The notes: a model not told the origin generated them from the sequence alone. Counted from the stretch's first letter, positions 8,429 to 18,225 are shown. The stretch is DNA of 64,000 nucleotides from Patescibacteria group bacterium (GCA_041665085.1 JBAYJO010000001.1:40671-104670); one strand, 5' to 3'. Numbers and translations: made by a program.

Positions 8429-8947
8429 ATGAAGAGAATTGCTTTAGTTGTGGCGCAAAATGAATTTAATGAACAAGAGTATGAAGATGTTTTTGATGCG
8501 TTTGAAGCAGAGGATTTTAATATATCGGTTGTTTCAGAAAGCGTGGGGCAAGCAGTTGGCAAAAATGGAAAAATTATAAATGCCGATTTCTCGCTTGGTT
8601 CAATAATAGTTGGTAATTATGATGCAATTGTTTTTATTGGCGGACATGGTGCGCGTGAGTTAGTTCATAATTCTAGTGCTATGCATTTAATTAAAGATGC
8701 CTATTCTCAAAATAAGATTGTGGCTGCAATTTGTATTGCACCGATTATTTTGGCATTTGCCGGGATATTAGAGGGGAAGAAAGCCACTGTTTCGTCTGGC
8801 GGAGTTGATATTTTAGTAAATAAAGGCGCAGAATATGTTGACAGAGATGTTGTGGTTGATGGGAATATTATTACCGGTTCCGGTCCAGATGCATCAATTG
8901 ATTTTGCAAATAAAATAATCGAGGAACTTCAAAATGGTGAATCATAA
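8429..8947 (+). CDS. DJ-1/PfpI family protein
   Basis: AAICIAP nucleophile elbow. Size and layout match the DJ-1/PfpI family. Confidence 0.7.
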   Translation: MKRIALVVAQNEFNEQEYEDVFDAFEAEDFNISVVSESVGQAVGKNGKIINADFSLGSIIVGNYDAIVFIGGHGARELVHNSSAMHLIKDAYSQNKIVAAICIAPIILAFAGILEGKKATVSSGGVDILVNKGAEYVDRDVVVDGNIITGSGPDASIDFANKIIEELQNGES

Positions 8948-9332
8948 AAGACTTCTAGTTGTTGAAGATGATTATATTTTAGCTCACATGTATAAGGAGC
9001 GATTTGGTGCTGAAGGATATGAGGTGGTGTCAGCTGACAATGGTGAAGACGGGATTGATGAAGCATTGGCAGGAAATTTTGACTTGGTTATTCTGGATCT
9101 GATGCTTCCTAAAAGAGGTGGTTTGTCGGTTCTTCAGATTTTGCGTTCAAGACCGGAGACTGAAAAGATTCCTGTAATTATTATTACTAATCATCCGGAT
9201 GACAGGTATCGAGAAATTGCTGAAAAATATGGGATCGAGGATTTTGTGTTTAAAGCCGAAATAATGCCCAAAGATGTGATCGATCGAATTAATAAAATTA
9301 TAAAAAAATACGATGCGTCCGCTTTTGAATAG
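8934..9332 (+). CDS. Single-domain response regulator (REC only)
   Basis: LLVVEDD, phospho-acceptor region LVILDLMLP, and K near the C-terminus. Confidence 0.85.
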   Translation: MVNHKRLLVVEDDYILAHMYKERFGAEGYEVVSADNGEDGIDEALAGNFDLVILDLMLPKRGGLSVLQILRSRPETEKIPVIIITNHPDDRYREIAEKYGIEDFVFKAEIMPKDVIDRINKIIKKYDASAFE

Positions 9333-9381: not shown

Positions 9382-9456
9382 GGCGCCATCGTATAGAGGT
9401 TAGTACGCCGCCCTCTCACGGCGGTAACAGGGGTTCGATTCCCCTTGGCGCTGCCA
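9382..9456 (+). tRNA. tRNA-Glu (anticodon CUC)
   Basis: Acceptor GGCGCCA/TGGCGCT, anticodon stem CCGCC/GGCGG with loop CTCTCAC, T-arm AGGGG-TTCGATT-CCCCT, encoded CCA. Confidence 0.8.
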
Positions 9457-9538: not shown

Positions 9539-9853
9539 ATGATAGAAAAAGAGGAGATTAAAAATCGTTTGATAAAAAAATATAATTATCCTGATGAAGG
9601 AGCAGAACTTGTAGCATCAAAACTACTAGGCTTAGATGAAAAATTAGTGACAGAATTTGTTAAATGGTGGGAAACTGATCAACTGCCTATGATTGAAATA
9701 GAAGGATATTCGATAGAAAAATTCATTAGTGAATATGATTCTACACCACCAGCTGCATTTCTAAATATGAACTGGTTGATTAAAAATCCAGAGGAAGCAA
9801 AAAAGGCCTTTAGCAAAGGTTATGATAATGTAATTGTAAAGAAAAATGAGTGA
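9539..9853 (+). CDS. Hypothetical protein (islet A)
   Basis: RBS AAGGAG upstream. No recognised motif. Confidence 0.5.
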   Translation: MIEKEEIKNRLIKKYNYPDEGAELVASKLLGLDEKLVTEFVKWWETDQLPMIEIEGYSIEKFISEYDSTPPAAFLNMNWLIKNPEEAKKAFSKGYDNVIVKKNE

Positions 9854-10703
9854 ATTACTTGGTTCTGCATTTAAAAACGAAACAGTTCAGCCAGTGAGTA
9901 ATTTCGTTAGAATTACAGAAGAAATAGACCAACTTTTGTCGGAAGATACACCTGATAATCAGAAAGCATTAGAGGCTTTTGTTCTAAAACGTACTTCAGA
10001 ATTGACGGCAACTGCACCAGAAACTGAATATATTACATACAAAAAAGAAAAGCCACACAATGGTTTCATATCACCTAAAACTGAAGTTAAAGGCAAAATT
10101 ATGTATGATGGATTTCATTTAGATGATCCTGATTTATATCCTGCATTACTAAATGGATTAAAAGAATTAAAGTCAACTCCTGGATGGAAAGAAATGAGCA
10201 TAAAAGCTTTAGCAGTTCCAGCCGTAAACTATGCTGTATCAAAGTACTTTGGTAGTTATAAAATATCAGATGAACAAGAAAAACAAAATGCAGCTCATTA
10301 TATGAATCTTGGAGCTCCTTGTTCTATTAAAGAAATGAAGGGTAAAGGTATTGCTGTTTGTGCCGAAAAAGCAGCTGCCGCTCAAAATCTATTAACCTTT
10401 TTGGGGCTTGATTCAGAACTAGCAATGGCGGATTGCAAGCTTGATCCAAATCAAGAAGAAGGACCACATGCTTATAATATTGTTACGGGCCCAAATGGTC
10501 ATTTTATTTTTGATCCTACAAATCCTATTGTAAATGATAGTGCAGAGGGGCAACCGAATTATTTGCCAGCCACATATAAAATTTCAGATGAGCAATATGA
10601 ATCGCTGCAAAACCATCAAGCTGTTGAAGTAGCTCACACAAATACTAAGATTGTTGATGGGGAACAAGAAGCAGAAACAAATGCTAGAGTTTATAATGCT
10701 TAA
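9846..10703 (+). CDS. Hypothetical protein with possible transglutaminase-like Cys-His-Asp core
   Basis: GIAVCAEKAAAAQNLL ... GPHAYNIV ... FIFDPT resembles the transglutaminase-like cysteine peptidase core. Confidence 0.4.
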   Translation: MSELLGSAFKNETVQPVSNFVRITEEIDQLLSEDTPDNQKALEAFVLKRTSELTATAPETEYITYKKEKPHNGFISPKTEVKGKIMYDGFHLDDPDLYPALLNGLKELKSTPGWKEMSIKALAVPAVNYAVSKYFGSYKISDEQEKQNAAHYMNLGAPCSIKEMKGKGIAVCAEKAAAAQNLLTFLGLDSELAMADCKLDPNQEEGPHAYNIVTGPNGHFIFDPTNPIVNDSAEGQPNYLPATYKISDEQYESLQNHQAVEVAHTNTKIVDGEQEAETNARVYNA

Positions 10704-10762: not shown

Positions 10763-10835
10763 GATTCGAACGTCGTTTCCCTTGGCGCTGCCAAAAAAAT
10801 CACGAACTTTTGTTCGCGATTTTTTTGTAGTGCGG
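10763..10835 (+). repeat. Partial copy of the tRNA-Glu 3' end (att-like) plus a hairpin terminator
   Basis: CCCTTGGCGCTGCCA (10782-10796) repeats the tRNA 3' end at 9442-9456. Followed by ATCACGAAC-TTTT-GTTCGCGAT and a T7 run. Confidence 0.6.
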
Positions 10836-10946
10836 GGATGAGATTTTTGTATGGTGGACTATGCAAAACTTGATTATACGACCTATAGTGTGTTAATATT
10901 TTGGCAATTAGGATTAGCGAAAGTCCTGATCAAGGAGGAGGCAACG

Positions 10947-11453
10947 ATGATCACACGAATAATGCTGTCGGTCGTCATCGTTATACTGGCAGTGTGTTTC
11001 CTGCCAGTTCCAGTGAGGAGTCAGACTGTCTCCCTCTGGACTGAATCCAGTAGTGACTATACCACATACAATTGGGCGGTAGATTGGTATGGTTTGACTT
11101 TCTTCTCCGTACTGATACCGGAGAATGCTCACTTCGCAAGTTTGTATTGCCCGTGTGGGTGGGCATTCGATCTCTCTAGATATGGGAACATATGGGAAAG
11201 ATATTTGGAGTCCCCACCCTCTGATTATATGTGGGCGTATTATTGTCGGACTGCGCCCGGTACACCTCCCAGTGTATTGACATTCGCACTGACAACCAGT
11301 GCGTATTACGAGACCGGAATTGCCCTGTATGGTGTTGCAAATGGTTCTGGCACATCGTACGGCCCAACAATGGGGCCAATTGTGCCGGAACTGCCGTCTA
11401 TGATAGTGTTGATGCTAGGAGCTCTCGGTATTGTCGCTCGTAGGTGGCATTAG
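10947..11453 (+). CDS. Secreted protein with PEP-CTERM-like sorting signal, GC-rich
   Basis: RBS AAGGAGGAGG before ATG 10947. N-terminal signal peptide. C-terminus VPELPSMIVLMLGALGIVARRWH (PE-P motif, TM helix, basic tail). Confidence 0.5.
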   Translation: MITRIMLSVVIVILAVCFLPVPVRSQTVSLWTESSSDYTTYNWAVDWYGLTFFSVLIPENAHFASLYCPCGWAFDLSRYGNIWERYLESPPSDYMWAYYCRTAPGTPPSVLTFALTTSAYYETGIALYGVANGSGTSYGPTMGPIVPELPSMIVLMLGALGIVARRWH

Positions 11454-11667
11454 CCAGAGTTTGTCTTTTCTCGGCCTGGCCCTTACTCGGGGCTAGGCCA
11501 TATTTTATTTCATTTTACGCTTATTAATATTAAATTACGAATTATCAGGTTATTTGAGAACCATTCCTTGATTTTAATTAGATAATCTTCAAAAGTTAAT
11601 TCTAGTTGATTTTGGTTAATCAAATATTTATTATACTCTTAAATGATAAAGGATTAATTTTGTAGTT

Positions 11668-12660
11668 ATGAATCATACATTTAGGACGCTAAAATGGAAA
11701 CGCCATTCTACAGCAATAGCAAGAAAGCGTTTAAGACGACAGAGAAGAAAAAAAGGTCAGACACTTTTTAATTCTCCGAAGTATTTTAAGAAAATTTCTG
11801 CCCCTGCTTATTTTAGTATGATTAAAAATCCTGAAGGTATGGTTAGATTTTATCATGATTTTGAAAACGTTGTTAGCACAGGTGCGGGTGTTGATTTTGA
11901 TTTATCTCAAATAAAAGTGATGACGGTAGATGCTGTATTGTATACTCTTTATTTCTTTGATTATTTGAAATCTAAAAGAGTGTATTATTTTGTCAGAGGA
12001 AATGAGCCTAAGGATCAAGAATGCAAAAGGATTTTTCAAGAATCAGGGTTTTATAAATATGTTCAATCTTCTCAACTTAACAAAACGAGTTATAATATAT
12101 TTCCAATAGAATCAGGAACTTCTGTAGATCCTACCTTGGCTGAAAAAATAATTGATTTTACACGAGATAGATTACTTTATCCGAAATCGAAAAAAATAGA
12201 AGGTGTTTTTATAACTTTAGTTGAGTGTATGACAAATACTATTCAATGGGCTTATGAAAAAAATTATTCCCTTAATAAATGGTGGGTGGCAGCTTATTAT
12301 GACAAAAACCAAAACAAGATCTTTTATATTTTTTTAGACAACGGGCAAGGAATACCATCAACTGTGAGTAAAAGATTTCCAGAACGTGTCGCAGCGATAT
12401 TTAAAAAGATCACAAAGCAGCAACTCGATACAACTTTAATTAAATCTGCATTAAAAGGAGAATTTAGAACTCGAACTAAACAATCAAGTAGAGGAAAAGG
12501 ACTACCACAGATTTATAGTTTTGCTAAAGAGGGAAAGATATCTGATTTGCGAATAATGTCCAACAGAGGTTATATTGATACTGTGGATCCTAATAATTGT
12601 GAGGAGCTAAGCCGCAAATTCATAGGTACTCTGTTTAGTTGGAGTTACTCAACTAAATGA
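11668..12660 (+). CDS. GHKL-type (histidine kinase-like) ATPase protein without HisKA domain
   Basis: N-box-like VECMTNTIQWA, G1 box FLDNGQGIP, G2 box SRGKGLPQI. Basic N-terminal tail. Confidence 0.55.
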   Translation: MNHTFRTLKWKRHSTAIARKRLRRQRRKKGQTLFNSPKYFKKISAPAYFSMIKNPEGMVRFYHDFENVVSTGAGVDFDLSQIKVMTVDAVLYTLYFFDYLKSKRVYYFVRGNEPKDQECKRIFQESGFYKYVQSSQLNKTSYNIFPIESGTSVDPTLAEKIIDFTRDRLLYPKSKKIEGVFITLVECMTNTIQWAYEKNYSLNKWWVAAYYDKNQNKIFYIFLDNGQGIPSTVSKRFPERVAAIFKKITKQQLDTTLIKSALKGEFRTRTKQSSRGKGLPQIYSFAKEGKISDLRIMSNRGYIDTVDPNNCEELSRKFIGTLFSWSYSTK

Positions 12661-12689
12661 TCTATAATTTAAATTGATAAGGAGCCAAA

Positions 12690-12995
12690 ATGGATATATA
12701 TATAAAAAATTTTTCTACTGCCCTTGGCGGCAGATTTAAAAAAGAAGGTAATTTTTCGGGAGAAGAGTTTAGAGAAAAATATTTAGAACCTTTATTCAAT
12801 GGGAAAAAGACCGATCAGATCAATATCTATCTTGATGGTACCGAAGGATACCCAAGTTCTTTTTTAGAAGAAGCATTTGGCGGATTGGTTCGTTTATTAA
12901 ATGATAAGGAAATTGTAAAAAAACGATTGCGCTTGGTTACAAGTGATTCAATGTTGGAAAAAGAAATATTAAATTATATTGAAAATGCCCTATGA
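12690..12995 (+). CDS. Small STAS-like (DUF4325-like) protein
   Basis: 101 aa. The IYLDGTEGYPSSFLEEAFGGLV core matches my recollection of the DUF4325/STAS-like family that partners GHKL ATPases. Confidence 0.4.
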   Translation: MDIYIKNFSTALGGRFKKEGNFSGEEFREKYLEPLFNGKKTDQINIYLDGTEGYPSSFLEEAFGGLVRLLNDKEIVKKRLRLVTSDSMLEKEILNYIENAL

Positions 12996-13567
12996 AAATT
13001 TGGTTTAAAGAAAAGTATATTTTCATTACTCTGTTTATCCCCCTTTTGGTGGGAATAATAATTGTGTATTTAAAATGGGCAGATATTAGAGATGATTTTT
13101 TTAAAATTAATTTCGCTGATGTGTTCCAAGTCATTGCCACATGGATTATTGCTTTATTTGTAACCTCATATGTCGGTGAAAAAACAGGTAACAGCAATAA
13201 GAGGAAAGAAATTATTTTAAAAATCTTGGATGAATTTAGAGATAGGATATCCGAGATGTTTAATCTATCCACTACTTATATGGAAAATTCTGACAAAAGT
13301 CTCGAGAAATCAATCTTAGCCTGCAGTGAAAAAGCTAATTATCAGCTTAATAGTCTTATAGAATTAAAAAAGAATGGGATTTTAAATTGTTTAAATTTTG
13401 GCGATGATCTTGAAAATTGTTGTTTAAAGTTTAAAATTGCCGTTACTGAATCACCTTTTCGTACTAATAATGTTGTATATGATGAAACAAAAAAGAATAA
13501 AGTCTATACTAGTTTTTATGAGTTAATAAAAAAAATTGATACTATTAGGTATAGACTTTATAAGTAA
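12992..13567 (+). CDS. Membrane protein (two N-terminal TM helices plus cytoplasmic domain)
   Basis: Start overlaps the previous stop (ATGA), so translationally coupled. No known motif. Confidence 0.5.
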   Translation: MKIWFKEKYIFITLFIPLLVGIIIVYLKWADIRDDFFKINFADVFQVIATWIIALFVTSYVGEKTGNSNKRKEIILKILDEFRDRISEMFNLSTTYMENSDKSLEKSILACSEKANYQLNSLIELKKNGILNCLNFGDDLENCCLKFKIAVTESPFRTNNVVYDETKKNKVYTSFYELIKKIDTIRYRLYK

Positions 13568-13598
13568 ATTTATTTACACATACCCAGAAAGAAACAAT

Positions 13599-13763
13599 AT
13601 GGCCAACACAAAAGGAAAAGTTACATTTAGAGCTAATAAAACCATTACCAAACCAGTAAAGGTTGAATTTACAAATCGTAGGGGAGAAAGAGTGTCTTTT
13701 ACAACACATGAGAAAGTGATTAAGCCTGTAAAAGTTGAATTTTATGTTAGAAGAAAAAAATAA
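13599..13763 (+). CDS. Small basic protein with internal KPVKVEF repeat, putative antitoxin partner of the PIN protein
   Basis: ATG at 13599. Motif TKPVKVEF...IKPVKVEF duplicated. Overlaps the PIN gene start. Confidence 0.35.
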   Translation: MANTKGKVTFRANKTITKPVKVEFTNRRGERVSFTTHEKVIKPVKVEFYVRRKK

Positions 13764-14388
13764 AGTTTTTTATATCGATACTAATATAGCTTTGGATTGT
13801 GCTACTAATAGAAATATACATACTATTCTTTTAATTGAGAGGATTAAAGAGCAGAATTGGAAATGTGTTAGCTCAGCTTTTCTCGCCATGGAAATGGCTG
13901 ATTATAAAAAAGATAGTCTTTTTATTACAGATAGAATTATAAATAAAAAATGGGAAACAAGAAAAGTGCTAAGGGAAGTATATAAAAAAACCTTGCGAGA
14001 GAGCGATTATGAAGAATTATCAGAGTGGCTAAAAGAATTTAATCAAAGATACAAAATTGAGATGTATGACTTTTTAAGTGAGGCTAAAGGTTGGGATTTG
14101 GCACAACAAATTAGTAATAAATATTCAATTACTGCTGCAGACTCTATTCATTTAGCATCGGCTGTGTTAGGATCATTGAGCCAAGGGATTGAAATTTTTA
14201 TAACAGAAGATAAAGATTTAAAACAAATAACTTATCAGATAGTAAAGGATTTAAAAGTTGAAAATCCAGAGCTAAGTCTTCAACCTATGAATGTTGAAGA
14301 AGTGAAGAAAAGTTATTTCCAACCATTATCTATTCAAGTTGATAAAAAAGTGGACGTAGCAGAAAGGACAGTGTCTGAAAGATGGTGA
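13735..14388 (+). CDS. PIN-domain (VapC-like) nuclease
   Basis: Acidic residues in FYIDTNIALD, AADSIHLASAV and FITEDKDL match the PIN catalytic motifs. Confidence 0.7.
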   Translation: MNFMLEEKNKVFYIDTNIALDCATNRNIHTILLIERIKEQNWKCVSSAFLAMEMADYKKDSLFITDRIINKKWETRKVLREVYKKTLRESDYEELSEWLKEFNQRYKIEMYDFLSEAKGWDLAQQISNKYSITAADSIHLASAVLGSLSQGIEIFITEDKDLKQITYQIVKDLKVENPELSLQPMNVEEVKKSYFQPLSIQVDKKVDVAERTVSERW

Positions 14389-14500: not shown

Positions 14501-14560
14501 CCAAAAAAAATTTGGCTGTCTGTCAAAAAAATCACAAACTTTTGTTCGTGATTTTTTTTG
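14501..14560 (+). repeat. Second copy of the att-like tRNA-fragment plus hairpin repeat
   Basis: TTGGCTGTCTGTCAAAAAAATCACAAACTTTTGTTCGTGATTTTTTTTG is near-identical to 10783-10835. Confidence 0.6.
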
Positions 14561-15963: not shown

Positions 15964-16569
15964 TTAAAGTGGAATATCGAGATCAGCTGTTGGATTAGAA
16001 TTAGTACTTGGAATTGTAGATGTGGAAGATGCAGGAATAATTGATTCTGCTGGCGAGAAAGGTGAGAGCGGTGCCGGTTCAATTGATGGTGCGGGTGCTG
16101 GTTTGGCGACCGGTTGCTCTGATAATTGCGGAGTGGTTTCTTTTATATCGGTTTGTAGAGTATTGGTTGCATCAGAAGGTTGTTGTTGTGTGGGTGGTGC
16201 AGCAAATGTTTCTGTGGACTTAATTTCAGGCGTTTTAGGAGCATAAGAAGTCTGTGAGGAATTATTATTTATTGGATTTGAAGGTGTATTGTTTTCTGAT
16301 GTGCTAGGTGTTGTATTTGTAGTTTGAGGCTTTGCTGACTCTATGTTCATTGGTTTTTTGACAGGGATTCTTTCTTTACCTGTGATTTTTTTCAAATAAT
16401 TAATGTTAATTAAAGCTGCGGCAGGTTGGGATTCATTATCCAAAAAAACATACAGGTTTTCCGGATGCGCTGAATTTTGGACATCGGTTATTATTTTTTC
16501 AGTATTGTTTTTTAGTTCGCTAACAGGCATTATTTTATCAATTTCGACTTCAGGCATTTGTTCCTCCAA
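15964..16569 (-). CDS. Protein with Phd/YefM-like N-terminal domain fused to a long Pro/Thr/Ser/Gln-rich low-complexity tail
   Basis: N-terminus IMPVSELKNNTEKIITDVQNS...LYVFLDNESQPAAALININ resembles the Phd/YefM fold. The rest is PTS-rich. Confidence 0.4.
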   Translation of the reverse strand: MEEQMPEVEIDKIMPVSELKNNTEKIITDVQNSAHPENLYVFLDNESQPAAALININYLKKITGKERIPVKKPMNIESAKPQTTNTTPSTSENNTPSNPINNNSSQTSYAPKTPEIKSTETFAAPPTQQQPSDATNTLQTDIKETTPQLSEQPVAKPAPAPSIEPAPLSPFSPAESIIPASSTSTIPSTNSNPTADLDIPL

Positions 16570-16939
16570 GTTCTTTAGCTAATATTTGTGCAATTTTATC
16601 CGGTTCATTGTAGGCTTTAACATAATATTCTTTAGCGCCCATTTTCATTGCTTTTTCTTTGGCTGATTCTTCAGGTAAATTGGTTAAACAATAAATTGGG
16701 ATTTTATTTCCATTTGAGTCTTTTTTGATTTGATCTAAAATATCAAGGCCATTGGTGTGAGGCAATAATATATCTAGGAGAATTGCATCAGGTTGAAATT
16801 TTGGAATTAGTTCCACCCCTTGTTCTCCGCTTTGAGTAATTTCAACTTCAAAGCCTGATTTTATCAATGCATCTTTATACATTGTTAAGATATCAATTTC
16901 ATCATCTATGATTAAGATTTTTTTCTTTTGAGTTATCAT
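16550..16939 (-). CDS. Single-domain response regulator (REC only)
   Basis: ILIIDDE, DAILLDILLP, K103 region. Immediately downstream of the histidine kinase. Confidence 0.85.
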   Translation of the reverse strand: MITQKKKILIIDDEIDILTMYKDALIKSGFEVEITQSGEQGVELIPKFQPDAILLDILLPHTNGLDILDQIKKDSNGNKIPIYCLTNLPEESAKEKAMKMGAKEYYVKAYNEPDKIAQILAKELGGTNA

Positions 16940-16953
16940 AGGCTAATTATACA

Positions 16954-18225
16954 TCATTGCTTTGCAATAGGAAGCGACAAATAAAATGTGGTTCCTTTAC
17001 CTTCTTTTGATTCAAACCAAATTTTACCGTTTTGTTTATTTACAAGCGCTTTTACGATAAAAAGTCCAAGTCCGTTTCCTTTATTTCTGTTGTTTGAGCC
17101 ATGAAAAAACTCTTTAAATACATTTTGTTGTTCGTTTTGAGGAATGCCTTGTCCAAAATCTTTTACAGATATGATTAAATCATTTGAGAATTCATTTTTG
17201 CCTTGTTCTGCATTTATTACAACTTTTTTTCCTTTGGAATATCTGATTGCGTTATCGAGTAAATTATAAAGTGATTCGGTTATTTTTACAGGATCGATAA
17301 AAACTTTTGGTAATTTTTGTGGGATAAATTGTATTGGAATTTTTTTGTATTCGGACTCAAGACTGATATGCTCTATTGCAAGTTTTATTACCTCATTAAT
17401 ATCGGCAGGTTCAAGTGATATTATTATTTTTTTTGATTCTATATGAGTAATGTTTAAAAGATTGCTTACAATATCAACCATATTTGTGGTTGATATATGA
17501 ATTGAGTTTAGATATTTTTCCTGATCTTTGTTTAATTTGCCTAAATGACCGGACAAAAGGTTTGAGCAATAGCCTCGGATTATTGAAAGCGGGGTAAATA
17601 ACTGGTGCGAGGTCATGGAAATAAATTCTTTTTCTCTGGTTTCGATTGATTTCATTGCTTCATCTGCTTTTTGGAGTTTTGTTTCTGCCAGTTCGCGTAG
17701 TTCTTTTTCATGCCTTAAATTCATGGCAAGAGTTCGGCAAAACAAAGTAATAAAGAGTAGAAAAATTATTTGAAGGGGACCGGTGAAAAATAAGTTTTCG
17801 CCGGAGTAGCTATAGACACTGTTATTAATTAAAAATTCTGCGCCAAGCATCAGAGAAACAAAGGCGGCCATGAGCAGGCTATTTATTAGATTTAGAGTCA
17901 TTGCAACTGAAGCAACCGGGATAAAATATAGGACATAAAAATATTGACCATAATCTTTAATCAGATGAATTAATATTCCAATAAAAATTACATCAATGAT
18001 ACTTTTGAGCCAGATTCTTTTGGTTTTGTTGAGCCAGTTGAACAGGACAAGGTAATAGAGAAGGGCAAAAGAGATTATTGCGCCTATAAAATAAAAAATT
18101 TCATCGTTGTTGATTAAGTTTTGAGGTAGAAATTTAACAAAAATCAAAGCAATAATTACGATTGCCCATGTGATTCCTTCGTAGATTTTCTCTAAATGGT
18201 GTGATTTTTGAAGTGCGATCGGCAT
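16954..18225 (-). CDS. Sensor histidine kinase with polytopic membrane N-terminus
   Basis: H-box FISMTSHQLFTPLS, N-box LLDNAIRYS, G1 VKDFGQGIP, G2 GNGLGLFIV. Confidence 0.85.
   Translation of the reverse strand: MPIALQKSHHLEKIYEGITWAIVIIALIFVKFLPQNLINNDEIFYFIGAIISFALLYYLVLFNWLNKTKRIWLKSIIDVIFIGILIHLIKDYGQYFYVLYFIPVASVAMTLNLINSLLMAAFVSLMLGAEFLINNSVYSYSGENLFFTGPLQIIFLLFITLFCRTLAMNLRHEKELRELAETKLQKADEAMKSIETREKEFISMTSHQLFTPLSIIRGYCSNLLSGHLGKLNKDQEKYLNSIHISTTNMVDIVSNLLNITHIESKKIIISLEPADINEVIKLAIEHISLESEYKKIPIQFIPQKLPKVFIDPVKITESLYNLLDNAIRYSKGKKVVINAEQGKNEFSNDLIISVKDFGQGIPQNEQQNVFKEFFHGSNNRNKGNGLGLFIVKALVNKQNGKIWFESKEGKGTTFYLSLPIAKQ

What the first reader, a model, noticed from the sequence alone, without database searches (positions are those of the whole stretch)
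11668..14388. Uncharacterised three-gene operon (GHKL ATPase, small STAS-like protein, 2-TM membrane protein) beside an atypical PIN toxin pair, inside a tRNA-linked islet: candidate novel defence or abortive-infection module
Three translationally coupled genes sit at 11668-13567. The first has GHKL N/G1/G2 boxes but no HisKA domain. The second is a ~100-aa STAS/DUF4325-like partner. The third is a membrane protein with an unannotated cytoplasmic domain. This recalls the SpoIIAB/SpoIIAA kinase plus anti-anti-sigma logic, but with a membrane effector attached. Directly downstream is a PIN nuclease whose partner is a 54-aa basic protein with a duplicated KPVKVEF motif, which is not a canonical VapB. 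The whole block sits in a 3.7-kb islet bounded by repeated tRNA-Glu 3' fragments, which is the typical genomic context of defence islands. I do not recognise this gene combination as a described system.
Basis: partly seen in the sequence, partly recalled or inferred. Interest (0 to 1): 0.8.

Follow-up and report, generated by a model that had tools for sequence, protein, structure and literature searches.

The report
Kinase–STAS–membrane protein defence-like operon
Three genes here encode a protein kinase, its small likely substrate and a membrane protein; the trio is widespread in phages and bacterial defence islands and looks like an undescribed membrane-acting relative of the recently published VapKSC anti-phage system.

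Summary
Genes g1 (11668-12660), g2 (12690-12995) and g3 (12992-13567) are real.

- **g2:** a DUF4325 STAS protein with an invariant serine.
- **g3:** a two-helix membrane hairpin plus a cytoplasmic four-helix bundle.

The order g1-g2-g3 recurs in 64 of 69 related loci with enough downstream sequence. These span many phyla and prophages, and one copy follows a phage cI gene. Restriction-modification (RM), BREX, AbiE and toxin-antitoxin genes are frequent neighbours. The g1 family has about 5,100 clusters at 50% identity.

The gene combination is not wholly unknown. g1 and g2 are remote homologues of CapK/CapS and VapK/VapS (EMBO J 2026), a kinase activated by single-stranded DNA (ssDNA) that phosphorylates a STAS protein. 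Here a membrane protein sits where the PIN toxin VapC sits in VapKSC.

The neighbouring PIN gene and its 54-aa partner form a separate conserved pair that never co-occurs with the trio.

Most likely mechanism (inferred): g2 restrains g3 until g1 phosphorylates g2. I rate this a new variant of a known kind, of moderately high interest.

The parts
11606..11634 (+). Promoter-like site (TTGATT-17-TATTAT) 34 nt upstream of g1
   Evidence: Consensus scan. The number of such sites in the region is not above the shuffled expectation, so this is only a candidate. The terminator at 11473-11499 lies just upstream.
11668..12660 (+). g1: CapK/VapK-like Ser/Thr kinase, 330 aa. Basic N-terminal tail (about residues 1-38), STAS domain (about 39-135, nt 11782-12072), SpoIIAB/RsbW-like GHKL domain (about 144-330, nt 12097-12657).
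12690..12995 (+). g2: DUF4325 STAS-like protein, 101 aa, the presumed kinase substrate. The invariant Ser57 is encoded at 12858-12860.
   Evidence: PF14213 E 5.4e-9. R15, F27, G53 and S57 are invariant in 59 homologues. The g2 'PSSF' motif aligns on CapS 'DSSF', whose Ser54 is the phospho-acceptor (and PMC13373217). VapS against the g2 profile: E 1.4e-4. Present directly after g1 in 70 of 74 loci.
12992..13567 (+). g3: 191-aa membrane protein with two N-terminal transmembrane helices and a cytoplasmic four-helix bundle; the presumed effector or membrane partner.
13599..13763 (+). 54-aa very basic protein with a tandem duplicated KPVKVEF(Y) unit, partner of the PIN gene. This is a separate module, not part of the triad.
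   Evidence: repeat D4. Homologues of 55-57 aa lie directly upstream of, and overlap, the PIN gene in 21 of 23 metagenome loci. No family hit.
13744..14388 (+). PIN-domain protein (214 aa from ATG 13744; 217 aa from TTG 13735), presumed toxin of a separate two-gene module.
   Evidence: PF01850 E 3.2e-6. 23 homologous loci at 43-52% identity, none with g1, g2 or g3. No homologue in the 84 triad loci. No PDB sequence hit at E<=10 to any PIN protein, including the VapC chains of 9Z7O.
10788..10826 (+). Left copy of the 39-nt direct repeat (last 6 nt of tRNA-Glu, an A-run and the terminator hairpin) bounding the 3.7-kb islet.
   Evidence: the repeat finder family D1. Terminator-like site 10803-10816.
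14520..14558 (+). Right copy of the 39-nt direct repeat, 92% identical to the left copy.
9382..9456 (+). tRNA-Glu(CTC), the anchor of the islets. Its 3' 19 nt are repeated at 10776-10794 (95% identical).
   Evidence: ARAGORN. Rfam RF00005, 61.6 bits. Repeat D3.
11473..11499 (+). Strong intrinsic-terminator-like hairpin that separates the GC-rich ORF 10851-11453 from the triad operon.

Best explanation
The three genes form a self-contained, horizontally mobile kinase-substrate-effector module of the CapK/CapS-VapK/VapS class, with a membrane protein in the position that the PIN toxin VapC holds in VapKSC.

**Shown here**
- g1 is a STAS + GHKL protein of the SpoIIAB/RsbW/CapK/VapK type with an intact ATP-binding and catalytic motif set.
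- g2 is a single-domain STAS protein with an invariant serine at the phospho-acceptor position.
- g3 is a 2-TM hairpin with a cytoplasmic four-helix bundle and no catalytic signature.
- The three genes, and only these three, travel together through many phyla, prophages and defence islands.

**Inferred by analogy with VapKSC and CapKS**
- In resting cells, unphosphorylated g2 binds the cytoplasmic bundle of g3 and keeps it inert.
- On infection or DNA damage, g1 is activated. The activator is probably a nucleic acid, and binding may involve g1's conserved, very basic N-terminal tail.
- Active g1 phosphorylates g2 on Ser57. Phospho-g2 lets go of g3.
- Free g3 oligomerises or otherwise perturbs the membrane, stopping growth and aborting the infection.

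In temperate phages the module would be expressed from the lysogen and protect it against other phages. This would make it a functional counterpart of lambda rexAB built from unrelated proteins.
For: - **Catalytic motifs.** N190, D224, G226 and G278 are present in 249 of 249 members, E186 in 246 of 249, R275 in 245 of 249.
- **Homology to the characterised kinases.** Against the g1 profile: CapK Prob 96.7%, E 3.6e-10; VapK Prob 92.7%, E 4.4e-7 over 226 columns spanning STAS + GHKL.
- **g2.** DUF4325 E 5.4e-9. S57 is invariant in 59 sequences and aligns on CapS Ser54. The best PDB sequence hit of the g2 profile is VapS, 9z7o_A. hhalign VapS E 1.4e-4.
- **Published mechanism of the relatives.** The kinase is activated by ssDNA (shown in vitro for CapK; for VapK inferred from an AlphaFold 3 model and the loss of protection in the F54A mutant). 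The phospho-mimic (S to E) mutation frees VapS from VapC and CapS from DNA. VapKSC gives about 2 log protection against phage Bas42 (PMC13373217).
- **Conserved synteny.** g2 follows g1 in 70 of 74 loci. g3 is present in 66 of 69. Both are present, in the same order, in 64 of 69. There is no conserved fourth gene.
- **g3 orientation.** The bundle is cytoplasmic in 58 of 58 homologues, so g2 can reach it.
- **Context.**
  - 28 IMG/VR viral contigs carry the module.
  - Flanking genes include lysis and terminase genes, recombinases, RM types I, II, IIG and III, PglZ, MADS, PifA, AbiEi, IetA, a CBASS cyclase and DISARM genes.
  - In Dialister the triad lies between transposases and next to AbiEi/AbiEii.
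  - In Manganitrophus it lies between a type III RM system and an MNT/HEPN pair.
  - On a Leptospira plasmid it lies next to MNT/HepT.
  - In Marinobacter phage AS1 the order is cI repressor, g1, g2, then a one-TM helical protein that the g3 profile does not detect, divergent from cro.
- **Family size.** 5,117 clusters at 50% identity at E<=1e-3, and 1,765 at E<=1e-30.
Against: - No experiment and no complex prediction links g2 to g3. The toxicity of g3 is assumed.
- g3 has no invariant residue. Its model is only moderately confident (pLDDT 69, five sequences), and its fold matches are generic.
- The aromatic residue that stacks on ssDNA in CapK (W68) and VapK (F54) maps to g1 position 84, which is variable. 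The activating signal may therefore differ.
- g2 similarity to VapS and CapS is weak (Prob 52% and 6%).
- No phosphatase is encoded, so how the switch resets is unknown.
- None of the three proteins hits any PADLOC model.
- The window's own g1 has Trp at position 194, where 247 of 249 relatives have His.
- The host is a Patescibacteria MAG, for which no phage-host system exists.
Confidence: 0.55

Rival explanations
1. Membrane-anchored signalling module rather than a toxin system. g3 acts as a sensor or scaffold that recruits or regulates the g1 kinase at the membrane, for example by sensing envelope perturbation or DNA injection. The output is phosphorylation of g2 or of another, unlinked target.
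Against: The bundle is cytoplasmic, not periplasmic as in the sensor domains. The fold matches are generic and include de novo designed bundles. No further conserved gene exists that could be the output. A three-gene unit that moves on its own needs its own effector.
Confidence: 0.2
2. Prophage superinfection-exclusion device. g3 sits in the membrane and blocks DNA entry of incoming phages, and g1/g2 only tune its activity. No cell death is involved.
For: The module sits in the immunity region directly after cI in Marinobacter phage AS1, and between lysis and terminase genes in several viral contigs. These are typical moron positions. A similar trio lies between CI and the integrase in Francisella prophage KIRK (PMC7924643).
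Against: Most copies are in chromosomes, islands or plasmids next to RM, TA and Abi genes rather than in prophages. An elaborate kinase switch is unusual for the small membrane proteins known to exclude superinfecting phages (background knowledge).
Confidence: 0.1
3. In this window g1 and g2 control the downstream PIN nuclease, making a split VapKSC, so that the functional unit is the five-gene block 11668-14388.
For: All five genes are on the same strand with no terminator between them; the next terminator-like hairpin is at about 14526-14558. VapKSC couples exactly such a kinase and STAS pair to a PIN toxin (PMC13373217). An earlier survey noted a PIN subgroup, PIN.4, coupled to DUF4325 genes (PMC5499597).
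Against: The PIN gene has its own conserved overlapping partner in 21 of 23 loci, none of which has g1, g2 or g3. None of the 84 triad loci has this PIN or the small protein. The PIN shows no sequence match to the VapC chains of 9Z7O at E<=10.
Confidence: 0.07
4. Housekeeping partner-switching module that controls a sigma factor, as RsbW/RsbV or SpoIIAB/SpoIIAA do.
For: The nearest solved structures are SpoIIAB, RsbW and UsfX. One source annotates a homologue as 'anti-sigma regulatory factor'.
Against: There is no conserved sigma factor or PP2C phosphatase in the neighbourhood: Sigma70_r4 occurs in only 2 of 140 upstream flanking proteins. The distribution across phyla is patchy, and the module occurs in phages, plasmids and islets. 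The kinase carries its own fused STAS domain, as CapK and VapK do.
Confidence: 0.03

Closest known systems
VapKSC (VapK kinase, VapS STAS antitoxin, VapC PIN toxin); Chambers et al., EMBO J 2026, PMC13373217
   Same: A three-gene operon in the same order: a STAS+GHKL kinase, then a small STAS protein with a conserved Ser/Thr, then a third protein. g1 aligns with VapK over both domains (hhalign Prob 92.7%, E 4.4e-7). VapS is the best PDB sequence hit of the g2 profile. Both are found near defence genes.
   Different: The third gene is a 2-TM plus four-helix-bundle protein, not a PIN nuclease. g1 has a long basic N-terminal tail that VapK lacks. The VapK ssDNA-stacking residue F54 has no conserved counterpart in the g1 family. 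Sequence identity is only about 17%.
CapK + CapS, regulators of CBASS, Bub and Thoeris operons that respond to DNA damage (same paper)
   Same: A STAS+GHKL kinase followed by a STAS substrate. hhalign of CapK against the g1 family gives Prob 96.7%, E 3.6e-10. The g2 motif 'PSSF' aligns with CapS 'DSSF', which contains the phospho-acceptor Ser54. The pair often lies just downstream of an RM system, as in Manganitrophus.
   Different: g1 lacks the N-terminal HTH of CapK. g2 lacks the C-terminal winged HTH of CapS, so it cannot be a DNA-binding repressor. A conserved membrane protein follows the pair, instead of a variable immune operon.
SpoIIAB/SpoIIAA and RsbW/RsbV partner-switching modules
   Different: No sigma factor target and no PP2C phosphatase is present. 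In g1 the kinase is fused to its own STAS domain. The context is mobile or defence-related rather than developmental or stress regulons.
Lambda RexA/RexB (functional and positional analogy only)
   Same: In Marinobacter phage AS1 the module directly follows cI in the immunity region, as rexAB does in lambda. Both combine a cytoplasmic sensor with a membrane protein (background knowledge on Rex).
   Different: No homology is known or was found here. RexB is a multi-pass membrane protein and RexA is not a kinase (background knowledge).
VapBC-type PIN toxin-antitoxin pairs (for the neighbouring 13599-14388 module)
   Same: A PIN-domain protein (PF01850) is preceded by a small gene that overlaps it, and the pair is conserved.
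   Different: The partner is a 54-57 aa, very basic, internally duplicated beta-rich peptide with no recognisable VapB DNA-binding domain. The PIN carries a long insertion and a C-terminal extension.

Membership tests
VapKSC | Kinase with a STAS domain followed by a GHKL kinase domain (VapK-like) | tested here: met
VapKSC | Second gene encodes a small STAS protein with an absolutely conserved Ser/Thr in the STAS domain | tested here: met
   PF14213 E 5.4e-9. S57 is invariant in 59 sequences. Homology to VapS itself is weak (E 1.4e-4, Prob 52%).
VapKSC | Third gene encodes a VapC-like PIN toxin | tested here: not met
   The third gene is a 2-TM plus helical-bundle protein in 66 of 69 loci. The nearby PIN is not co-conserved with the triad.
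VapKSC | Conserved aromatic ssDNA-stacking residue in the STAS domain (VapK F54, CapK W68) | tested here: not met
   It maps to g1 position 84, where the commonest residues are N, K, E, S and V, none above 33 of 249.
VapKSC | STAS protein neutralises the third protein; phosphorylation releases it; the system protects against phage | not testable with these tools
   This needs expression, pull-down, Phos-tag and plaque assays.
CapK + CapS | CapK architecture HTH-STAS-GHKL | tested here: not met
   STAS and GHKL are present and homologous. The N-terminus is a basic tail with one helix, not an HTH, and no HTH family hit was found.
CapK + CapS | CapS architecture STAS plus winged HTH, a DNA-binding repressor | tested here: not met
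   g2 is 101 aa and ends with the STAS domain.
CapK + CapS | The pair lies upstream of a variable immune operon | tested here: not met
   A conserved membrane-protein gene follows the pair. Beyond it the genes are unrelated from locus to locus.
SpoIIAB/RsbW anti-sigma kinase modules | GHKL Ser kinase of the HATPase_c_2 type, with N, G1 and G2 boxes | tested here: inconclusive
   The fold and motifs are met. No Pfam HATPase model scores, and NCBIfam RsbW gives only E 0.06.
SpoIIAB/RsbW anti-sigma kinase modules | A cognate sigma factor and a PP2C phosphatase in the regulon or neighbourhood | tested here: not met
   No conserved neighbour exists. Sigma70_r4 occurs in 2 of 140 upstream flanking proteins, and no PP2C is among the top families.
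Sensor histidine kinases | HisKA/DHp dimerisation and phospho-acceptor domain before the catalytic domain | tested here: not met
   The region before the GHKL domain is a STAS fold. No HisKA hit was found.
Known defence systems in PADLOC-DB v2 | Any component matches a PADLOC model | tested here: not met
   No hit at E<=1 for g1, g2, g3, the 54-aa protein or the PIN.
VapBC toxin-antitoxin (neighbouring pair) | PIN-domain toxin with acidic active-site residues | tested here: met
   PF01850, 28.2 bits against a cut-off of 23.6. The motifs D in 'YIDTN', E in 'AMEMA', D in 'AADSIH' and 'TEDKD' can be read directly in the sequence.
VapBC toxin-antitoxin (neighbouring pair) | Upstream antitoxin with a recognised DNA-binding fold (AbrB, RHH, PHD/YefM or HTH) | tested here: not met
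   No Pfam, NCBIfam or PHROG hit for the 54-aa protein. It is a basic tandem-repeat peptide.

The most novel reading that the evidence does not exclude
The triad is a distinct, very widespread abortive-infection or exclusion system carried by prophages and defence islands. In this reading a nucleic-acid-activated GHKL kinase phosphorylates a STAS 'antitoxin' to unleash a small membrane-disrupting protein. This would be a Rex-like outcome reached with CapK/VapK-type parts. It would show that the kinase-STAS sensor pair is a general plug-in trigger for unrelated effectors (repressor, nuclease, membrane protein).
Probability: 0.4. Interest if true: 0.75.

Novelty: new variant of a known kind. Interest (0 to 1): 0.62.

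Why it matters
The kinase-STAS sensor pair was characterised only in 2026, and in two settings: as a transcriptional switch (CapKS) and as the trigger of a PIN toxin (VapKSC). This locus suggests a third and apparently much larger setting. The kinase family has about 5,100 clusters at 50% identity, no Pfam model detects the kinase in the window's copy, and no PADLOC model matches any of the three window proteins. The pair is wired here to a small membrane protein, and the unit is carried by temperate phages, plasmids and defence islands in many phyla, including Patescibacteria.

If the proposed mechanism holds, three things would follow:
- A new effector class would be added to a phosphorylation-controlled immune trigger.
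- There would be an annotation for thousands of proteins now called 'hypothetical' or 'ATP-binding protein / STAS-like protein'.
- A compact three-gene system would be available in which every step can be tested with simple point mutants: g2 S57A and S57E, and g1 N190A.

Tried and rejected
- **Family scans of g1.** Pfam, NCBIfam and PADLOC gave nothing significant; the best were RsbW at E 0.06 and DUF6272 at E 0.18. The GHKL assignment therefore rests on structure and profile-profile evidence.
- **PDB sequence searches.** g1 alone and the g1 profile gave only sub-threshold matches to histidine kinases and STAS domains.
- **g3 homologue searches.** The word-indexed protein search found only g3 itself, and then only 6 proteins with the profile. 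The g3 model consequently rests on 5 sequences.
- **AFDB50 fold search.** Not available.
- **BFVD search with g1.** It returned only generic viral HATPase proteins.
- **g2 against the STAS domain of g1.** hhalign found no detectable relationship.
- **First genome scan.** The wide alignment failed for lack of a conserved stretch. It was repeated with a narrower alignment.
- **Literature searches.** Searches for STAS or partner-switching together with phage defence returned nothing useful. Searches for 'VapS' drowned in unrelated acronyms. The relevant paper surfaced only with 'GHKL' + 'anti-phage'.
- **MADS membership.** Considered because mad2, mad3 and mad8 genes flank two or three loci. Rejected because g1, g2 and g3 themselves hit no mad model and most loci have no mad genes.
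- **PIN pair as part of the system.** Rejected on co-occurrence.
Full report
**1. What is in the sequence**

On the + strand the window carries, in order:

| Name | Coordinates | Length |
|---|---|---|
| g1 | 11668-12660 | 330 aa |
| g2 | 12690-12995 | 101 aa |
| g3 | 12992-13567 | 191 aa |
| small ORF | 13599-13763 | 54 aa |
| PIN ORF | 13735/13744-14388 | 217/214 aa |

- g2 and g3 overlap by ATGA. g1 and g2 are 29 nt apart with an AAGGAG ribosome-binding site. The small ORF overlaps the PIN start.
- A strong terminator-like hairpin at 11473-11499 precedes the block, and a promoter-like site lies at 11606-11634.
- No terminator-like site lies inside the block. The next hairpin followed by a T-run is at about 14526-14558.
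- The host is a Patescibacteria MAG. g1 is identical to NCBI protein WCW17_00280.

**2. The islet**

- tRNA-Glu(CTC) lies at 9382-9456. Its last 19 nt recur at 10776-10794 (95% identical) and close a 1.3-kb insert with two unknown ORFs.
- A 39-nt direct repeat occurs at 10788-10826 and 14520-14558, 92% identical and 3732 nt apart. It consists of the last 6 nt of the tRNA, an A-run and the terminator hairpin.
- This second islet holds three things: a GC-rich ORF (about 50% GC against a background of about 31%), the triad and the PIN pair.
- Neither islet contains an integrase.

**3. g1 is a STAS + GHKL kinase**

- No Pfam, NCBIfam or PADLOC model detects it. It does match the uncharacterised phage family phrog_3364 (E 1.5e-39).
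- An alignment of 53 homologues shows an N box (ExxxNTxxHA), a G1 box (DxGxGIP), a G2 box (RGKGLP) and a GT motif.
- In 249 distinct members N190, A195, D224, G226 and G278 are invariant. E186 is present in 246, H194 in 247 and R275 in 245.
- The AlphaFold2 model is confident: pLDDT 90.1, pTM 0.85.
- There is no DHp/HisKA domain.
- Position 86, at the N-cap of the STAS helix, is Thr or Ser in 221 of 249 members, and D88 is acidic in 236 of 249.
- Upstream of the STAS domain every member has a very basic tail, with a median net charge of +16 over 58 residues.
- The window's copy has Trp instead of the near-invariant His194. So does one unrelated member (33% identical), so the change appears tolerated.

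**4. g2 and g3**

g2:
- It is a DUF4325 STAS-like protein (E 5.4e-9).
- R15, F27, G53 and S57 are invariant in 59 homologues.

g3:
- It has no family hit.
- Its model (pLDDT 69, from only five sequences) shows helices 3-32 and 41-64 followed by four long helices.
- By the positive-inside rule, both termini and the bundle are cytoplasmic in 58 of 58 homologues.
- No residue is invariant among 55 homologues.

**5. The three genes are one conserved unit**

Using the g1 alignment I fetched 28 viral (IMG/VR) loci and 56 genomic loci. The genomic loci come from Patescibacteria, Bacteroidota, Acidobacteriota, Deltaproteobacteria, Bdellovibrionota, Spirochaetota, Deinococcota, Gammaproteobacteria and others. 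Local profile searches gave these counts:

| Measure | Result |
|---|---|
| g2 homologue directly after g1, among loci with at least 400 nt downstream | 70 of 74 |
| g3 homologue present, among loci with at least 1 kb downstream | 66 of 69 |
| Both present, in the same order | 64 of 69 |

- Gene junctions are typically overlapping or within a few nucleotides.
- Flanking genes are unrelated from locus to locus. The largest flank clusters, of 4-5 members, are terminases of related phages. The unit is therefore exactly three genes.
- A profile search of 1.84 billion representative proteins finds 5,117 g1 relatives at E<=1e-3 and 1,765 at E<=1e-30.

**6. Context**

- Upstream and downstream neighbours include phage lysis genes (Amidase_2, holin), small and large terminases, serine recombinases and integrases.
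- They also include many defence genes: RM types I, II, IIG and III, PglZ, DISARM DrmD and DrmMII, mad2/3/8, PifA, AbiEi, IetA and a CBASS cyclase.
- In Dialister the triad lies between two transposases and next to AbiEi/AbiEii.
- In Candidatus Manganitrophus it lies between a type III RM system and an MNT/HEPN pair.
- On Leptospira interrogans plasmid p4 it is annotated 'ATP-binding protein / STAS-like domain-containing protein / hypothetical' and is followed by MNT/HepT.
- In the cultured temperate Marinobacter phage AS1 the order is AS1_42, AS1_41, AS1_40, AS1_39, transcribed divergently from cro:
  - AS1_42 is a Phage_CI_repr protein (E 1.4e-7).
  - AS1_41 is g1-like (E 1.7e-32).
  - AS1_40 is g2-like (E 4.3e-32).
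  - AS1_39 is a one-TM helical protein that the g3 profile does not detect.
- This is the position that rexAB occupies in lambda (background knowledge).
- A published table for Francisella prophage KIRK lists the same pattern between CI and the integrase: a 293-aa protein whose best hit is phage AS1, a 112-aa DUF4325 protein and a 125-aa TM protein (PMC7924643).

**7. Relation to what is known**

- The best PDB sequence hit of the g2 profile, though weak (E 0.04), is 'Escherichia VapS', 9z7o_A.
- This led, via a search for 'GHKL' plus 'anti-phage', to Chambers et al., EMBO J 2026 (PMC13373217).
- That paper describes two systems:
  - **CapK + CapS.** CapK is an HTH-STAS-GHKL kinase and CapS is a STAS-wHTH repressor. 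CapK is activated by ssDNA and phosphorylates CapS on Ser54.
  - **VapKSC.** VapK is a STAS-GHKL kinase. VapS is a STAS antitoxin with conserved Ser48 and inhibits the PIN toxin VapC; the phospho-mimic S48E mutant no longer binds or neutralises VapC. The operon gives about 2 log protection against phage Bas42.
- I took the sequences from the paper's supplementary files and compared them by hhalign:

| Comparison | Prob | E-value | Aligned columns |
|---|---|---|---|
| CapK vs g1 family | 96.7% | 3.6e-10 | 172 |
| VapK vs g1 family | 92.7% | 4.4e-7 | 226, across STAS and GHKL |
| VapS vs g2 family | 52% | 1.4e-4 | 55 |
| CapS vs g2 family | 5.9% | 6.4e-3 | 32 |

- In the CapS alignment, CapS 'DSSF' falls on g2 'PSSF', which places g2 Ser57 on CapS Ser54.
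- g1 and g2 are therefore remote members of the CapK/VapK and CapS/VapS class.
- The differences are clear:
  - g1 has no HTH but has a basic tail.
  - g2 has no wHTH.
  - The ssDNA-stacking aromatic residue (VapK F54, CapK W68) maps to the variable g1 position 84.
  - The third gene is a membrane protein rather than a PIN.
- The paper's main text contains no occurrence of 'transmembrane'.
[quoted passage not shown] That subgroup presumably corresponds to VapKSC.

**8. The PIN pair is a separate module**

- Neither the PIN nor the 54-aa protein has a homologue in any of the 84 triad loci.
- Conversely, 23 metagenome loci encode PIN homologues at 43-52% identity. Of these, 21 have a 55-57 aa basic protein directly upstream that overlaps the PIN start and carries the same tandem KPVKVEFY unit. 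None has g1, g2 or g3.
- The gene upstream of that pair is often a DNA methyltransferase or restriction gene. This is my reading of the translated sequences and was not checked with HMMs.
- The PIN shows no sequence match at E<=10 to any PIN protein in the PDB, including the VapC chains of 9Z7O.
- The juxtaposition in this window is best read as two defence-type cassettes stacked in one islet. Co-transcription cannot be excluded.

**9. Mechanism**

Shown:
- the domain composition;
- an intact catalytic motif set;
- an invariant serine at the acceptor position;
- the cytoplasmic orientation of the g3 bundle;
- strict three-gene synteny;
- a mobile, prophage or defence-island context.

Inferred by analogy with VapKSC and CapKS:
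- g2 holds g3 inactive.
- An infection-linked signal, plausibly a nucleic acid sensed with help from the basic tail, activates g1.
- g1 phosphorylates g2 on Ser57.
- Released g3 damages membrane function and stops the infected cell.

Alternatives are that g3 is a sensor or scaffold, that the module is a non-lethal exclusion device, that g1 and g2 also govern the PIN here, or that it is a housekeeping sigma-factor switch. These are weighed in the rival explanations.

**10. Verdict**

It is right on architecture and context. It is wrong that nothing comparable is described, and wrong to link the PIN pair to the triad.
- This is a new effector variant of a kind of system described only in 2026. 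It is very widespread, unnamed and directly testable.

Noticed in passing
window 10851-11453 (+): A 200-aa ORF with about 50% GC in a genome of about 31% GC. It has an N-terminal hydrophobic segment and a C-terminal 'VPELPS + hydrophobic stretch + RRW' tail that resembles a PEP-CTERM/MYXO-CTERM sorting signal (TIGR03901, E 0.6 only). A strong terminator follows at 11473-11499. It looks foreign, which is odd for a Patescibacteria genome.
   Followed up: partly
window 9539-9853 and 9846-10703 (+): Two overlapping ORFs (104 and 285 aa) with no family hit. They fill a first 1.3-kb islet between tRNA-Glu and the 19-nt repeat of its 3' end at 10776-10794. This suggests two successive insertions at the same tRNA.
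   Followed up: partly
window 13599-14388; loci L093-L115: The PIN protein and its 54-57 aa, very basic, internally duplicated partner (KPVKVEFY twice) form a conserved overlapping gene pair in 21 of 23 metagenome loci. The pair usually lies right after a DNA methyltransferase or restriction gene. The partner has no recognised antitoxin fold, so this may be an undescribed PIN-partner family.
   Followed up: partly
window 12247-12249 (g1 residue 194): The window's kinase has Trp at position 194. At that position 247 of 249 family members have His, as do VapK, CapK and SpoIIAB. One unrelated member (P0144, 33% identical) shows the same change, so it is probably tolerated.
   Followed up: yes
g2 against phrog_5816: g2 matches only the C-terminal positions 345-438 of a 441-position phage family profile. 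Phages therefore also carry larger proteins with a DUF4325 STAS domain fused at the C-terminus.
   Followed up: no
loci L002-L028 (IMG/VR): In several viral contigs the triad lies between the lysis cassette (amidase, holin) and the small and large terminase genes, a classic moron position. In two or three genomic loci it lies among MADS genes (mad2, mad3, mad8).
   Followed up: partly
window 8934-9332, 16550-16939 and 16954-18225: Response-regulator receiver proteins and a histidine kinase flank the islets. These are ordinary two-component genes unrelated to the triad.
   Followed up: no
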